Positions 18,001 through 27,000 of a DNA stretch of 64,000 nucleotides are shown one piece after another. Source of the DNA: an uncultured Gemmatimonadales bacterium (GTDB lineage: Bacteria; Gemmatimonadota; Gemmatimonadetes; Gemmatimonadales; GWC2-71-9); contig CAVZZO010000003.1 in assembly GCA_963779755.1 (NCBI GenBank), forward strand, positions 1,440,001 through 1,504,000. Reading direction: 5' to 3'. Made by a program: the position numbers. Every line of letters starts with the position of its first letter. The first letter of the stretch is position 1.

Positions 18001-21000
18001 CATCGCCGAGGCGGTGAAGACCAACCTGTCGCAGAGCAGCGCCGTGCACGTGATGCCCACCAGCGCGGTCGTGGCCACGCTGGAGCAGATGCAGCGGCCC
18101 GACACGGCGCGGGTGGACTATGCCACCGCGCGGGAGATCGCCCAGCGATCGGGTGCCAAGGCGGTGGTGACGGGGAGCATCGTGCCGGCGGGGAGCGGGT
18201 ACATCATCACCGCCAAGCTGGTGGAGGCGACCTCGGGCAACGATCTGGCGTCCTACACCGAGTCGGCGAAGGATGCGGGCGATCTCATCGCGGCGGTGGA
18301 CCGGGTGACCAAGTCGCTGCGCGGCAAGATCGGCGAGTCGCTCAAGTCGGTGCACGACGCGCCCCGGCTCGACCAGGTGACCACCGCGTCGCTCGGCGCG
18401 CTCAAGAGCTACACCGCCGGGCTCTTCGCCAACGACGTGCAGGGCGACTACCCGGCCGCCATCCAGCACTTCCGCGACGCCATCCGGCAGGACAGCACCT
18501 TCGCCATGGCCTGGGTGCAGCTCGTCCTACTCGCTGGCGTCGAAGGGCGGCACCGGTTCGAGCGCGGCAGCGGACGCGGCGCTGACCCAGGGTTTCCAGC
18601 TGCGCGACCGGCTGCCGGAGCGGGAGCGGGCCAATGTCGAGGGGGCGTACTACTGGCTGGTGGCGAACGACCGGAAGAAGGCGATTCCGGCGCTGCGGCG
18701 CGCGGTGGAGCTCGACTCCACCAATGTGGACGCGGTCAACAACCTCGCCATCGCCCTCTCCAATACGCGCGACTATGCCGGCGCCGAGCGGATGTACCGG
18801 CTGGCGATCGCGGGCGATCCGGGGAACGGCACGCTGATCACCAACCTGGCGACCCTGTACACCATGATGGGGCGGCATGCTTCGTTCGATTCGGTGATGG
18901 CGGCGGATGGAGCGCGACAGCATCCCCTTCCCCACCGCGCCCGCCCGTTTCACCGAGCTGCTGGCCGCGCCATCAGTACGACTCGGCCGAGGCGCTCGCC
19001 CGCGCCGGGGCCGACACGGCCAGGCCGGCGAACCGGCCGCGCGCCCAGGAAGCCGTGATCCAGTTGGCGGTGCTGCACGGCCGGCTGCGCGAGGCGGAAC
19101 GGATGTACCCCGCCTGGCTGGACGCGACGGCTCGTCTCCGCGGCGATTCGGTCAGCCCGTACCAGATCGCCTACTGGCATGCCATGGTGGACGGCGCCCT
19201 GCGGGGCAACACCGCGAGAGCCACCGCCATGCTCGACTCGACGCTGCGCGCCCATCCGGTGGCCTCGGAGCCGCTGGAGCGGGACCAGAGCCAGTACCTG
19301 GCCCTGGCCTATGCCCTCATGGGCGATGCGGCCAAGGCGCGAACGGTGATGAGCCAGCACGTGGCCCGGCTCGATTCGCTGGGCCAGACGCAGCAGTATC
19401 TCTGGCGGGTCTGGCTGCAGGGCGCCACCGCCCTGGCGGAAGGAAAGACCGACAGCGCCATCGTCTATTACCGCCAGAGCGACTTCGACGCCGACGGCCT
19501 GCCGATGAACAGACGGCACCGTGTGGCCCCCCCTCACGCTGGGCCAGGCATTCGATCGCGCGGGCAAGCCCGACTCGGCGCGGAAGTACCTCACCCAGTA
19601 TGCCGAGATGGCGGGGACCGGTCATTATAATGCGGACCCCTACAACATGGCGCCCACGCTCTTCCGGCTGGGCCAGCTGTACCAGGACGCGGGCGACACC
19701 GCACACGCGATGGAGTACTACGGCCGGTTCGTGGATCTGTGGAAGAACGCCGACCCCGACCTCCAGCCGCGGGTGACCGAGGCGAAGAAGGCGATGGCGG
19801 AGCTGGCGCCGGATCGGCGATAGCCTCACCCCCTCCCTCTCTACCTCACCCCTGTCCCCTCTCCACTTGGTGGAGAGGGGGACCGAACCTCAGGATCCCA
19901 ACCAGCGCTTCGCGGGACACTTTTTCATTTGCCAGCCGGACAACCCGGTAACCGCGCCGAATGAGCCATTCGGTCCGTGCATGGTCTTTCGCGGTTTGTG
20001 CAGGATCCAGATGTATCGGCCCGTCAATCTCCATGATGAACCGCAACTCGGCACAATAGAAGTCGACAACGAAGGGACCAACGGGGTACTGGCGGCGAAA
20101 CCTGAGTCCAAACAGCTGCCGGTTGCGGACGAGCTGCCAGACCTTGTGCTCGGCAGGCGTAAGATGCTTCCGAAGCCCTCGAGCGATCTGCTTCCTCGCA
20201 ACCATGCGGCGGCGGATGGGGCGATGCATACGGACACGATAGATATAGACCGGCCTGCACGTCACACCATACGAACGCAAACAGAGCCGATGAAACGCGG
20301 GAATCCCGAGTGCCGCGTCCCCCTCTCCACGAAGTGGAGAGGGGACAGGGGTGAGGTAGCAGCGGAGAGCGGACAATGGTAAGGCAGCGACAGAGGTGAG
20401 GGAGGACGCACTGGAGAGGGGGCCAAGGGGTGAGCCTACGGCACCATCCGGAACCGCTCTACATGTCTCGCCCGCACCACCCCGAAATGCCGCCGGTCCG
20501 TCGTGAGCACGCTGGTGATATCCAGGCGCTCGGCCATGGCCACGAGTGACGCATCCACGAAACCGAGCGGCAGGGACTGGTAGATGGAAACGAGATCGGC
20601 AACGCGGGGGAGATCCTCCTCCTCCTGCGGCTCGATCCGGAACTCGCCATCGGCCAGCGCGCGGACGAAGGCCTGCTCCGCCGCGGGGCCGATCCGGGTC
20701 TGGAGGAGATAGCAGATTTCGGGAAGGACAGGGGCCGGCACCAGGATGTCCTCTTTGCCGCGCTCCCACCAGCTCCGCACCCGGTTGTGCCAGGCATCGC
20801 TCCGGTCAATGAGCGCGTACAGGGGCCCGGTGTCGGCCAGGACGGTCAGGCGTGCGGCTCCTGCCAGAGCAGGTCTTCCTGCCGCTCAGCCGTGTCCCCG
20901 CACCCGCTGGCGAACTGCCCGGCGATCGTGGGTACCCTCCGCCCGGACTCACCGCTCCCCCGCCCCAGATAGAACGCGACAGCCTCGCGCAGTACCGCCG

Positions 21001-24000: not shown

Positions 24001-27000
24001 AGGGGGTTAGGTCAGGGGGGACAGGGGGTTAGGTCAAAGGGGGAACAGGGGGCTAGATCAGCCTGAAGACGGAGGACACGGGATCAGGTCACCGGTACCG
24101 CTCTCCGCCCTTCCACACCGCCTCGACGTTGCGCAGAGTCGAGATGTCCTTCGTCGGATCCCCCTTCACCGCCACCAGGTCCGCCAGCAACCCCACCGCG
24201 ATGCGGCCACGGTCGTTCAGGTGGAAAATCGCGGCGTTGCCGCTGGTGGCGGCCTTCGCCGCGGCGAGCGGGGTCATGCCGTGCGCTACCATCAGCTCGG
24301 CTTCCCGCACGTTGGTGCCGTGGGTGAAGACACCGACATCGCCGCCGAAACAGATGGTGACGCCGGCATCCAGCGCCGCCCTTGAACGAGGCCCATTTGG
24401 CCTTGAGGCCTGCGGGCTCCGGCGTCCTGCCCGGCAGGTAGCCGGCGAAGTACTCGGCATAGGCCTCGCTCGCGGCCAGGGTGGGGCAGAGCGCCACGCC
24501 CTTGTTCTTCATCAGCTGAAAGACCTCGGGTGTTCCTTCGCCGCCGTGCTCGATGGTGGTGACGCTGGCCAGGATGGCCCGCTTCATGCCTTCCGGGGTG
24601 TTGGCGTGCGCCGCCACCGGCCGGCCGGCGTCGGTGGCCGTTGCCACCAGGGCGTTCAGTTCCTCCTGGGTGAAGGTGGGGCGCGACTCGCCGCGCGGCC
24701 CCCAGCCATAGTCGGCATAGACCTTGACCCAGTCGGCGCCGTGGCCGATCTGGCTCCGGGTGACACGGGTGATCTCCTCGACGCCCGAGGCCTCTTCCCC
24801 GCCCTGCGGCGGGTCGAACGAGTAGTTGGTGCGCCGGGGGCCGTAGCTGCCGGTGGCCACGATGGCACGGGTAACCGCCAGGATCCTCGGGCCGGGGACG
24901 ACCCCGTCATTGATGGCGTGCTTGAGCTGGACGTCGTAATCGAAGACGCCCTCGGTCCCCAGGTCGCGGGTGGTGGTGATGCCGGCCATGAGGGTGGCGC
25001 GGGCGTGCGCCACGGCCTCGGCCATGCGGTAGCCGGCCTTCTCCTTCAGGACCTGGTCGTCCCAGAGCGTTTCATTGTAGGGATGGAGAAAGAGATGGCT
25101 GTGGCCCTCGATCATGCCGGGAATGAGCGTGGTGCCGGGGAGGCTGATGCGTTCGGTACCGGCCGGCGCCTTGAAGCCGGCGGCCGGCCCGACAGCTTCG
25201 ATGCGGTTCCCGTGGACCAGAACCACCCAGCCTTTCTGCGGGCCGTCGGCTACCCCGTCCCACACCGCATCGGGAACCAGCAGGGTGCGTTTTACGGAGT
25301 CGGCGGCAGGCTGCTGCGCGTGGGCAACGGGCGCGGCCAGGATCAGCGCGCCAAGGATTGCCAGGTGGCTGGGACGAAGCATGGGAGTGGCTCGGGATGA
25401 TTTGAAACCGCAGATTACGCAGATTACGCAGAAACGGCAACGACGCGAGGTTGATCAGTCCGCTCCCACGCAGGTGCTATTTTTTGTCAGCACAAAGCGG
25501 TAGTATCCCAGGCTCGGCGTTCCGAAATTGAGCAGGAGAGCGCGGGTCAAACGGCTGGCTTTGAGATAGTTGATAACCTGGGCTCTCTCAATGTCAGTGA
25601 CGGTGGGAAGGGCCTTGATCTCGACGACCAGGTGCTCATAGCAGACAAAGTCGGCGCGGTAGCCGGTTTTCAGGAATTGCCCATTGAAGCGGATTGGGAA
25701 CAGTACCTCCGACGCAAAAGGGATCCCGGCCGCGCTCAATGCCAGAGCCAGCGCCTCGTGGTACACAGCCTCCAGAAAACCCGCTCCCAGTTGTCGATGC
25801 ACCTGCAGAGCTGCCCCAATAACGGCATACGTTTCGCTGTCGCGCCTGGTGCGTAAGATGCTCATTAGTAAGTAGTGAAACCAACTGCCGCTACGGCGCA
25901 TCATCATTTCAGCGCACGGCAGGGCATTTTCAATCTGCGTAATCTGCGTAATCTGCGGCTCCACCCATCGGACTCCTGAAAATGCTCAGAACCCTGACAC
26001 TGGCAGCTGTGGCAGCCTGCATATCCGCCTCGACCGGATTGGCTCAAGCCACCATCCCCGATTCGCTCGCCTACCGGGAGTACCGCCTCACCGACTCGAC
26101 CCTGACGAAGTTCGCCGCGGCGTCCAAGGCCATCCTGGAGGCCAACCAGCGGAACGAACTCCCGTCCATGAACCTGGACGACGTCGAAACCATCGACGGG
26201 ATGGCCGCCTTCTACGACCGCACTCCCGCCCTGCACGATGCCCTGGCCCGGGCCGGGATCAGCGCCCGCGACTTCGTCCTCTTCATGACCACCGCCTTCC
26301 AGGCCGGTGTCGGCTCCTGGATCGTGGAACGCAGCGGCTGGAAGGCTCTGCCCCACAACGTGGCGCCGGAGAACGTCCGGTTCTATCGCAAGCACGCGCC
26401 GGAGCTCGCCCGGATGAACCAGGAGCTGGCCCGGCTCCGGGAAGGGCAGCAGTGACCCCGCGGTTTCCGGCCGTGGCGGGCGGGCTATCGCAAAATGGGG
26501 AGCCAGCAATATCGTTGATCATCCCCAGCGCAACCTGACCGCACCTCCCTTCTCGCCGGCGAACCCGTGTCCGATCCTGTCGCCCATCTCCAGGCCGTGC
26601 TCGCCGGCCGGTACCGCTTCGAACAGAAACTCGGCCGCGGCGGGATGGCCACGGTCTTCCTGGCGCAGGATCTCAAGCACCAGCGGCCGGTGGCGGTCAA
26701 GGTGCTCCATCCGGAGATCTCAGCCGCCCTGGGCCCGGAGCGGTTCCTCCGCGAGATCCGCATCGCGGCCAGCCTGAACCATCCCCATATCCTGACGCTG
26801 ATCGACTCGGGGGAGGTGCCGGCCGGAGACGCCTCTCCCCGCGGAGCGCCCCTGCTCTACTACACCATGCCCTACGTGGAGGGCGAAAGCCTGCGGGACC
26901 GGCTCAACCGCGAGGGCCGGCTGCCGCCGGGGGACGCCGTCCGCATCATGCAGGACGTGCTCGATGCGCTGGCCTATGCCCACCGCCAGGGCATCGTGCA

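What a model noticed while it worked through the whole genome (the two positions that open the first line are those of the whole stretch)
19800..26060. GxxExxY and DUF559 nuclease-like genes carry their own inverted repeat arms; the hairpin families are their gene-less co [...]
GxxExxY (PD-(D/E)XK) genes are bracketed by inverted arrays of 9-bp units (CGCAGATTA at g03381, CCGCGAAGA at g01784, CCACGGAGG in relatives), and both DUF559 genes by inverted CCCCTGTCCCCCT arms. The many gene-less hairpins with the same arms make these nucleases the candidate autonomous partners, as RAYT is for REP.
Evidence so far: Flanks read in calls 16 and 24. Own arms match (>=3 8-mers) in 14 of 23 GxxExxY loci (4 own) vs 9.7% of mismatched pairs. 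58 CAGATT-type and 27 CGCGAAG-type arm pairs within 600 nt in this genome, mostly 80-175 nt apart.
(Added by a program. Inside this text positions count along the whole contig: contig position 1,440,001 is position 1 of the stretch shown here. "Call 12" and the like, gene names such as g00115 and contig names such as C1 are that model's own, and its searches are not shown. The text may have been shortened before it was handed on; [...] marks where a part breaks off. The agent that wrote the report below was given it as the finding of a first reader that could run no searches.)

Follow-up and report, generated by a model that had tools for sequence, protein, structure and literature searches.

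The report
Nuclease genes with family-specific hairpin arms
Three small nuclease-like genes here each sit between mirror-image DNA arms whose sequence type follows the protein family and also occurs without a gene at many other places in the genome, which makes these proteins testable candidates for spreading the repeats (including E. coli's long-orphan BoxC repeat), although a protein family with no known nuclease activity is packaged the same way and no cutting or movement is shown.

Summary
The arms are real. Own inverted arms flank 24 of 32 GxxExxY loci in the phylum, 53 of 76 in other phyla and 14 of 23 stand-alone DUF559 loci, against 0 of 28 PIN genes and 0 of 131 shifted windows. Arm type follows the GxxExxY tree and outlasts synonymous saturation; catalytic residues are kept. 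DUF559 arms resemble the known BoxC/TM motif, and repeat-rich genomes more often carry DUF559 (9 of 17 versus 2 of 45). A second GxxExxY cassette of this genome is missing from the same junction in 14 relatives. Limits: four-helix-bundle genes, with no known nuclease activity, have own arms too (26 of 28); none of 49 gene-less hairpins here holds a gene remnant; repeat-rich genomes without the gene exist; deleted cassettes in one relative ride inside another element; no general target duplication. Verdict: a REPtron/IVS-like gene-in-hairpin cassette class, not found in the papers searched; nuclease-driven spread about 50% likely. The scan noted the GxxExxY, DUF559 and four-helix-bundle versions before on other DNA.

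The parts
19841..19883 (.). DUF559-a downstream arm (BoxC/TM-like: hairpin plus third purine/pyrimidine tract); encodes the last residues and the stop codon (19846-19848) of the gene
   Evidence: (I1); layout compared with the TMECO consensus
19846..20229 (-). DUF559-a gene, about 127 aa, Vsr/EDxHD-like nuclease domain; start codon inferred
   Evidence: (E 4.5e-31)
20317..20359 (.). DUF559-a upstream arm, 98% complementary to 19841-19883
   Evidence: I1
21215..21285 (+). gene-less single BoxC/TM-like arm (93% identical to 23967-24020) with a repeated third tract, inside a mosaic of several repeat families
   Evidence: (D1, D5)
23425..23462 (.). DUF559-b upstream arm, outer copy
   Evidence: I3
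23473..23513 (.). DUF559-b upstream arm, second tandem copy
   Evidence: I7, I11
23603..24010 (+). DUF559-b gene, 135 aa; model pLDDT 87.6, closest folds 3hrl and I-Bth0305I catalytic domain 3r3p
   Evidence: (E 7.2e-32)
23976..24059 (.). DUF559-b downstream arm (23976-24013; supplies the stop codon 24008-24010) followed by two partial repeats of its third tract
   Evidence: (I3, D5)
25403..25432 (.). GxxExxY downstream arm: three 9-bp units
   Evidence: I10
25455..25865 (-). GxxExxY (TIGR04256/PF13366) gene, about 136 aa (start uncertain; the frame stays open to 25964 through the upstream arm); PD-(D/E)XK fold closest to Cas4 SSO0001, RecE, lambda exonuclease
25934..25963 (.). GxxExxY upstream arm: three 9-bp units, 93% complementary to 25403-25432
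   Evidence: I10
48913..53364 (+). cluster of two full and several partial GxxExxY cassettes with window-type arms inside Rhs core-end pieces; a 32-bp piece of the Rhs core lies on both sides of the elements

Best explanation
Each gene and its arms form one small cassette (450-600 bp) that lives in intergenic DNA, often against a stop codon or terminator. Shown: the arms are specific to the protein family (9-bp arrays for GxxExxY, BoxC/TM-like arms for DUF559, mostly 7-bp arrays for four-helix-bundle genes), travel with the gene across phyla, and recur without a gene. Inferred: the encoded protein recognises its own arm type in folded (single-stranded or extruded) form; the two nuclease families nick there, and host repair or recombination then copies arm pairs to new intergenic sites, multiplies them in tandem and now and then moves the gene into an existing hairpin (homing-like). 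The gene-less hairpins are then clients or targets that share arms but mostly have cores of their own, as REPINs do, rather than deletion copies; they outlast loss of the gene and decay slowly.
For: Own arms: GxxExxY 24 of 32 (phylum) and 53 of 76 (other phyla), stand-alone DUF559 14 of 23; controls PIN 0 of 28, shifted 0 of 131, random 4 of 400, cross-family pairs 0-0.8%. Arm type clusters on the GxxExxY tree (37 label changes versus 63.3 shuffled, 0 of 200), the window's type in 11 phyla. Among 35 window-type loci, proteins are 59% identical and four-fold sites 30%, yet 55.5% of 986 pairs share an arm 9-mer near the gene versus 2.7% farther out. Catalytic residues kept: E27, D67, K79 invariant and E77 nearly so in 53 GxxExxY; E31, D59, E70, H76, D83 invariant in 27 DUF559; DUF559 matches the catalytic domain of the homing endonuclease I-Bth0305I (PMC3239194). 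Co-occurrence: stand-alone DUF559 in 9 of 17 family genomes with 5 or more BoxC-like matches and 2 of 45 with none (kin not independent); window-type 9-mer at 3 or more matches in 6 of 151 genomes, 5 with GxxExxY against a base rate of 56 of 151. E. coli chromosomes with ycjD: 21, 14, 15 BoxC matches; without DUF559: 4, 3, 15. The cassette at C1:2086417 is missing from the S1-protein/carboxyltransferase junction in 14 relatives. 35 of 54 BoxC-like motifs of one pattern lie within about 40 kb of the two DUF559 genes.
Against: Four-helix-bundle genes have own arms in 26 of 28 loci and no known enzymatic activity (PMC4990558), so the design does not need a nuclease. 0 of 49 gene-less hairpins here contain a gene remnant. 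Seven of the 17 repeat-rich genomes have no DUF559 match (G049, G056, G066, G084, G119, G148, G160; 95-99% complete) and O157:H7 has 15 matches without the gene. E. coli ycjD has the motif only downstream, and its alternative allele is an efflux operon, not a clean empty site. In G065 deleted cassettes are dispersed inside a second pair of inverted ends. One junction holds 71%-identical GxxExxY genes with different arm variants in G079 and G103. No general target duplication (1 of 53); no near-identical dispersed full cassettes in this genome outside the tandem Rhs cluster. The proteins are about 130 aa with no integrase or separate DNA-binding domain. No cutting, binding or movement was observed.
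Confidence: 0.5

Rival explanations
1. RNA-level wrapper (IVS-like). The arms pair in the transcript into a long stem that RNase III cuts out or that insulates the cargo, so the insert is nearly neutral inside operons; the protein may bind its own arm repeats to regulate itself. Cassettes and hairpins spread passively by horizontal transfer and recombination; the nuclease is cargo, not driver.
For: The three window cassettes fold with 56, 35 and 30 base pairs joining their ends. The four-helix-bundle family, the known cargo of RNase III-excised 23S rRNA IVSs with a 28-bp terminal stem (PMC4990558), has the same design. No promoter- or terminator-like site in the window GxxExxY cassette. Repeats persist without the gene.
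Against: A stem needs only complementarity, yet arm sequence and period are family-specific and conserved past synonymous saturation; it does not explain dozens of dispersed gene-less pairs (51 separate sites of window-type arms) or their co-occurrence with the gene.
Confidence: 0.27
2. Hitch-hiking. Arms and genes are moved by unrelated transposases (MITE-type carriers, IS elements) or host recombination into intergenic hot spots where several repeat families pile up; the gene-arm link is only shared ancestry of a cassette.
For: G065 has at least six dispersed internally deleted GxxExxY cassettes nested in a second pair of inverted ends. Intergenic mosaics of several families (21100-21500). 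One junction carries different families in different relatives. 26 of 45 gene-less cores form one dispersed family with a conserved core.
Against: Most cassettes have no outer inverted ends or target duplication; arm motifs stay tied to the protein clade over distances at which neutral DNA is randomised; cross-family arm matches are 0-0.8%.
Confidence: 0.15
3. Host-beneficial DNA-structure nucleases. The proteins resolve or repair hairpin/triplex structures formed by the repeats, and are kept where repeats are many; the repeats spread by another route.
For: Vsr-like and Cas4/RecE-like folds; BoxC/TM motifs form triplexes in vitro and mark unstable loci (PMC4666352); gene-repeat co-occurrence fits equally; rare on plasmids (8 of 72,556) and absent from 50,697 phage records with this query.
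Against: It does not explain why the gene itself is wrapped in the arms, down to taking its stop codon from them, nor the patchy, phylum-mixing distribution.
Confidence: 0.06
4. Chance bracketing: the genome is dense in repeats, so any small gene ends up between two inverted arms.
For: Repeat arms also flank a housekeeping nagB-like gene in the window, back to back.
Against: PIN genes 0 of 28, shifted windows 0 of 131, random 4 of 400; orientation relative to the gene is constant and arm type is family-specific.
Confidence: 0.02

Closest known systems
REPtron / RAYT-REPIN systems (10.1101/2021.07.10.451892; PMC3733652)
   Same: A low-copy nuclease gene flanked by its own repeat; dispersed extragenic hairpins of about 100-180 bp made of two inverted conserved arms around a variable spacer; tandem clusters; repeats that outlast gene loss; gene rare on plasmids and phages.
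   Different: The proteins are PD-(D/E)XK (Cas4/RecE-like) or Vsr/EDxHD-like, not HUH Y1 transposases; GxxExxY arms are 9-bp tandem arrays, not short palindromes; the GxxExxY tree mixes phyla whereas RAYT is reported as vertically inherited; no cleavage shown.
TIRtrons (TIRYT genes between long inverted repeats, PMC3733652)
   Same: Gene between long inverted arms, some arms forming repeat families, also inferred from sequence only.
   Different: TIRYTs are tyrosine transposases; the passages read mention no DUF559, Vsr or helix-bundle gene.
BoxC / PIT / TMECO intrastrand-triplex repeats (PMC4666352)
   Same: DUF559 arms have the same three-tract layout; occur singly, in inverted pairs and in tandem, intergenically; E. 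coli ycjD (DUF559) has TM copies next to it.
   Different: The window arms differ from the E. coli consensus in stem and linker letters; the paper's main text names no ycjD and no endonuclease and leaves the mechanism open.
ORF-bearing 23S rRNA intervening sequences (Coxiella, Leptospira; PMC4990558)
   Same: One small promoterless ORF closed by terminal inverted repeats that form a stem of about 30 bp; the four-helix-bundle cargo family is shared with this genome's other cassettes.
   Different: These cassettes lie between protein genes, next to tRNA or in an Rhs gene, not in rRNA; RNase III excision untested; cargo here is nuclease-like.
EDxHD homing endonucleases (I-Bth0305I, PMC3239194) and Vsr
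   Same: DUF559 matches the I-Bth0305I catalytic domain by sequence and fold and keeps the acidic/His residues.
   Different: No N-terminal DNA-binding domain, no intron or intein host; flanked by arms instead.
MITEs and their parent insertion sequences
   Same: Short dispersed elements with inverted ends; internal-deletion derivatives seen in G065 and G154.
   Different: No DDE or HUH transposase in the cassette, no constant target duplication, cores mostly unrelated to the gene.

Membership tests
REPtron (RAYT-REPIN) | Encodes an HUH Y1 tyrosine transposase | tested here: not met
   Genes are PF13366/TIGR04256 and PF04480; the genome's three Y1_Tnp matches lie elsewhere.
REPtron (RAYT-REPIN) | Gene flanked by its cognate repeat in inverted orientation | tested here: met
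REPtron (RAYT-REPIN) | Dispersed extragenic doublets with conserved arms and variable spacer | tested here: met
   49 gene-less window-type pairs of up to 300 nt, 17 core clusters among 45 cores; BoxC-like copies are more often single or tandem.
REPtron (RAYT-REPIN) | Vertical inheritance, tree congruent with host | tested here: not met
   33 phylum changes on 75 labelled rows of the GxxExxY tree; window arm type in 11 phyla (121 columns, weakly resolved).
REPtron (RAYT-REPIN) | Repeat abundance depends on presence of the gene | tested here: inconclusive
   Enriched (9 of 17 versus 2 of 45) but with many exceptions; E. coli 21/14/15 versus 4/3/15.
REPtron (RAYT-REPIN) | Protein binds and cleaves its own repeat | not testable with these tools
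   needs biochemistry
BoxC / TM intrastrand-triplex repeat (DUF559 arms) | Pyrimidine tract, short loop, complementary purine tract, short linker, second purine tract | tested here: met
   Window arms 20320-20359 and 23976-24013 against the consensus quoted in PMC4666352; same layout, not a letter-for-letter match to the E. coli consensus.
BoxC / TM intrastrand-triplex repeat (DUF559 arms) | Forms an intrastrand triplex | not testable with these tools
   shown for E. coli oligonucleotides in PMC4666352 only
23S rRNA IVS | Located in a 23S rRNA helix | tested here: not met
   Neighbours are protein genes, a tRNA and an Rhs core.
23S rRNA IVS | Terminal inverted repeats form a long RNA stem around one ORF | tested here: met
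   56, 35 and 30 pairs join the ends in predicted folds; prediction only.
23S rRNA IVS | Excised by RNase III | not testable with these tools
   no RNA holder listed
EDxHD homing endonuclease (DUF559) | Vsr-like catalytic domain with conserved E, D, H, D residues | tested here: met
EDxHD homing endonuclease (DUF559) | N-terminal DNA-binding (NUMOD/HTH) region and intron/intein or homing site | tested here: not met
   127-135 aa proteins are the catalytic domain alone; no intron context.
PD-(D/E)XK nuclease (GxxExxY) | Fold and E...D...ExK active site | tested here: met
   pLDDT 92.8; best match Cas4 SSO0001 E 1.4e-5; E27, D67, K79 invariant, E77 at least 90%. Activity itself untested.
IS / MITE | Constant target-site duplication | tested here: not met
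   1 of 53 loci with a direct match outside the arms; none at the C1 insertion; 32-bp duplications at two places in this genome only.

The most novel reading that the evidence does not exclude
A general class of minimal selfish elements in which unrelated small proteins (a Cas4-like PD-(D/E)XK nuclease, a Vsr/EDxHD nuclease, an Avd-like four-helix bundle) each read their own short repeat code and propagate hairpins bearing it without any transposase; DUF559/YcjD would be the missing enzyme behind E. coli BoxC repeats, and GxxExxY would insert through nicks about 32 bp apart, as the duplications at the Rhs core and at tRNA-Gln suggest.
Probability: 0.3. Interest if true: 0.88.

Novelty: new variant of a known kind. 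Interest (0 to 1): 0.62.

Why it matters
How small palindromic repeats spread is known only for RAYT-linked REPs; BoxC/TM repeats have no assigned enzyme in the paper that surveyed them (PMC4666352), and GxxExxY and DUF559 are widespread families of unknown function. The cassette design gives each protein a named candidate substrate (its own arms), and E. coli K-12 already carries a DUF559 gene (ycjD) beside BoxC copies, so the idea can be tested in a laboratory strain. A positive result would add non-transposase nucleases to the drivers of repeat families; a negative one would point to IVS-like RNA processing outside rRNA.

Tried and rejected
General target-site duplication: rejected (1 of 53 loci; none at the C1 insertion); most direct repeats beside gene-less hairpins are linkers of tandem clusters. 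Gene-less hairpins as deletion copies in this genome: rejected (0 of 49). Chance bracketing: rejected. Defence-system membership: only weak partial DpdF hits (E 1e-4 and 4e-5) for DUF559, none for GxxExxY. Empty sites for the three window cassettes: no relative keeps these junctions; the genome is the only one of its genus in the set. E. coli ycjD as clean insertion: the allele without it is an efflux operon in the three records opened, so no boundaries could be read. Reads: no RNA holder listed, one DNA run with 6% of words; no reads were laid, so expression, excision and polymorphism remain open. A family-by-family census of all arm types with cargo was not completed; a de novo count gave periodic arm pairs with gaps up to 250 nt of period 7: 62, 8: 16, 9: 38, 11: 9, and the cargo of the larger pairs was not annotated beyond the known genes. 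GIY-YIG search gave three matches whose flanks I did not examine. Literature: one search timed out. No complex prediction, no profile search of the large protein libraries, no Rfam search was run.

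
Full report
1. What is in the window. Between 19,800 and 26,060 lie two DUF559 genes and one GxxExxY gene, separated by a PIN/RHH toxin-antitoxin pair, a nagB-like gene and an amidohydrolase gene. Each of the three is enclosed by inverted arms: 19841-19883 with 20317-20359 (98%), 23425-23462 with 23976-24013 (89%, with a second upstream copy), and 25403-25432 with 25934-25963 (93%, three 9-bp units). In both DUF559 genes the downstream arm encodes the last residues and the stop codon (read). Folded as RNA, the cassettes join their ends with 56, 35 and 30 pairs. No promoter- or terminator-like site was found in the GxxExxY cassette.

2. More than chance. I scored the best ungapped inverted match between 250 nt upstream and 250 nt downstream of the family match (threshold 14). 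In the phylum sample (best locus per genome, plus own-genome copies) 24 of 32 GxxExxY loci pass (one of 33 dropped for a short flank) and 14 of 26 DUF559 loci (two of 28 dropped; three further weak or edge loci not used). Three of the 26 are DUF559-like domains in long ORFs and all fail, giving 14 of 23 for stand-alone genes. Random positions: 4 of 400; mismatched pairs 6.9% and 10.8%; cross-family pairs 0-0.8%. In 80 loci from other phyla found with the window protein, 53 of 76 with full flanks pass, 0 of 131 windows shifted by 1.3 kb, 14% of mismatched pairs. PIN genes, as a control for small mobile genes, give 0 of 28.

3. Arms follow the protein. GxxExxY arms have period 9 in 33 of 53 passing loci. 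On a tree of 113 proteins, arm type needs 37 changes against 63.3 in shuffles (0 of 200), and the window's type occurs in 11 phyla, while phylum needs 33 changes on 75 rows (FastTree, 121 columns, sample biased to the window's clade; types assigned by a short pattern). Among 35 window-type loci the proteins are 59% identical and four-fold sites 30%, near saturation, yet 55.5% of 986 pairs share an arm 9-mer close to the gene against 2.7% farther out. The arm sequence is therefore held or renewed together with the gene. Against strict pairing, G079 and G103 carry 71%-identical genes at one junction with different arm variants.

4. The proteins look active. GxxExxY keeps E27, D67, K79 invariant and E77 nearly so in 53 sequences; its model (pLDDT 92.8) is closest to Cas4 SSO0001, RecE and lambda exonuclease. 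DUF559 keeps E31, D59, E70, H76, D83 in 27 sequences and matches 3hrl and the catalytic domain of the homing endonuclease I-Bth0305I by sequence and fold. That paper describes the EDxHD motif and its Vsr ancestry (PMC3239194, passages); a superfamily survey lists PF13366 as unknown with multiple transfers (PMC3424549, passages). Activity is inferred, not shown.

5. The DUF559 arms are a known repeat. Their three-tract layout is that of BoxC/PIT/TMECO (PMC4666352; abstract, passages and one results section read); its main text has no 'ycjD' or 'endonuclease'. I took this lead from earlier scan notes and tested it. E. coli ycjD is DUF559 and has TM copies downstream only; 3,346 of 5,426 genomes carry the K-12 arrangement, and three records without it have an efflux operon there. 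BoxC matches per chromosome: 21, 14, 15 with ycjD; 4, 3 and 15 without any DUF559. In the window's family (72 genomes) a stand-alone DUF559 is in 9 of 17 genomes with five or more matches (a tenth has a contig-edge piece), 2 of 10 with one to four, 2 of 45 with none (Fisher p 5e-5 for the outer groups, overstated because kin are not independent and counts include the gene's own arms). Seven repeat-rich genomes have no DUF559 match. In this genome 35 of 54 motifs of one pattern lie within about 40 kb of the two genes. For the window-type 9-mer, 5 of 6 genomes with three or more matches have GxxExxY (base rate 56 of 151; clade not checked).

6. Insertion and hot spots. The genome's other GxxExxY cassette (C1:2086417-2086963) starts right after the terminator of an S1-protein gene and precedes a carboxyltransferase gene. 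No relative matched the cassette part. Of 24 relatives with a match I read the 14 with both flanks close on one contig: none has the gene; four have gene-less 8-bp arm pairs and one a single arm there; two have other DNA. No target duplication is visible. A second junction shows gene, gene with other arms, and a gene-less 7-bp-type hairpin in three species of one genus. The window's own junctions are not conserved in relatives.

7. What the gene-less hairpins are. None of 49 window-type pairs of up to 300 nt matches GxxExxY proteins; 26 of 45 cores form one dispersed family, four a local cluster, 15 are unique. Many sit in tandem clusters with linkers; arms occur at 51 separate sites. So they share arms but are not deletion copies. 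True deletion copies exist elsewhere: G154 has a tandem pair, and G065 has at least six dispersed ones, each nested in a second pair of inverted ends (their likeness to IS630 ends is recalled, not tested), which shows that another element can do the moving.

8. The design is not limited to nucleases. Seven of this genome's eight four-helix-bundle genes (PF05635) pass the arm test with 7-, 8- or 9-bp units, and 26 of 28 phylum loci do, 22 with period 7. This family is the cargo of RNase III-excised 23S rRNA intervening sequences and has no known function (PMC4990558, passages). This cuts both ways: it removes 'gene inside own arms' as an argument for a nuclease driver, but three families with three arm grammars and almost no cross-matches argue that the product, not chance capture, fixes the arms.

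9. A lead on mechanism. At window 48,913-53,364 GxxExxY cassettes interrupt an Rhs core end, and a 32-bp piece of it lies on both sides; the uninterrupted core is at C3:1507454. At C3:1553608 a cassette lies between tRNA-Gln and a copy of the tRNA's last 32 bp that is itself split by an insert. Two cases suggest staggered nicks or repair duplication, but only 1 of 53 other loci shows any outside duplication, and Rhs and tRNA ends are duplicated by other known processes.

10. Reading. Shown: family-specific cassettes, conserved arms and catalytic residues, co-occurrence with dispersed repeats, one insertion. Inferred: own-arm recognition and nicking followed by host repair (0.5). Rivals: IVS-like RNA wrapper (0.27), hitch-hiking (0.15), host-beneficial structure nuclease (0.06), chance (0.02). 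It works like a REPtron in layout but is not one: no HUH protein, and no vertical descent of the kind described for RAYT (10.1101/2021.07.10.451892, passages; PMC3733652, passages). GxxExxY relatives of the window protein are on 8 of 72,556 plasmid records and no phage record.

11. In print. Searches: 'GxxExxY' (3 papers; the passage read in one concerns a gene next to a CRISPR RT), 'DUF559' (25 papers, listing only except PMC3424549), and term sets on REPtrons, four-helix-bundle proteins, intrastrand triplex, EDxHD, IVS, REPIN and heptanucleotide repeats (PMC4679880 checked by term, no link). I found no description of GxxExxY or DUF559 genes as arm-bounded cassettes. The library lacks most subscription papers, and I opened no supplements; those of PMC4666352 and PMC3733652 could list ycjD or similar genes. 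The scan's own notes hold 33 GxxExxY, 8 DUF559 and 178 four-helix-bundle findings on other DNA; they are unchecked leads, not support. Unpublished genomes: G070 gives one GxxExxY locus and one four-helix-bundle locus; G161 gives one of the 14 junctions.

Noticed in passing
G000 C3:485106, C1:1925512, C3:1584211, C1:2133233, C1:1383396, C3:1559752, C3:1585128, C3:1257663: Eight four-helix-bundle (PF05635) genes, each with a different 7-, 8-, 9- or 11-bp arm unit that also forms a gene-less repeat family in this genome; the last keeps only its downstream arm beside an IS-like end.
   Followed up: partly
window 48913-53364 and G000 C3:1504108-1507500: Orphan Rhs C-terminal cassettes all begin at the same core codon directly beside a GxxExxY arm; the elements are separated by a 32-bp piece of the Rhs core, and the block is partly duplicated.
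   Followed up: partly
G000 C3:1553495-1554265 (L002): GxxExxY cassette between tRNA-Gln and a copy of the tRNA's 3' 32 bp that is split by a 77-bp insert. In G072 a DUF559 gene with a TM arm also lies next to what looks like the same tRNA end.
   Followed up: partly
window 21100-21500: Intergenic mosaic of at least four repeat types (BoxC-like arm, 8-bp array with a conserved 70-100 nt core found at about a dozen other places, two other palindromes).
   Followed up: no
window 20436-21082: PIN toxin with RHH antitoxin between DUF559-a and the orphan BoxC-like arm.
   Followed up: no
window 24084-25382: The amidohydrolase frame seems to shift near 24390: Pfam match ends at residue 299 and the C-terminal part is in another frame compared with the relative in L016; could be a sequencing error.
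   Followed up: no
window 16646-19823: Ser/Thr kinase-TPR gene split over several frames; possibly uncorrected frameshifts.
   Followed up: no
window 43748-44864 and 46148-47395: Two IS-like elements by eye: one with 19-bp inverted ends present three times in the genome, one with a long transposase-like ORF; families not tested.
   Followed up: no
G000 C1:953128-953475: RAYT-like Y1 gene flanked by two direct copies of an about 45-bp sequence rather than inverted arms.
   Followed up: no
G000 C1:600000-800000: 64 of 167 window-type arms lie in this 200-kb bin, far from any GxxExxY gene, mostly in tandem clusters.
   Followed up: partly
L179, L181-L185 (G065): Family of 300-380 bp elements: outer inverted ends enclosing GxxExxY arms and an N-terminal gene remnant.
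   Followed up: partly
G000, whole genome: Abundant 7-bp and 9-bp tandem families for which I found no partner gene.
   Followed up: no
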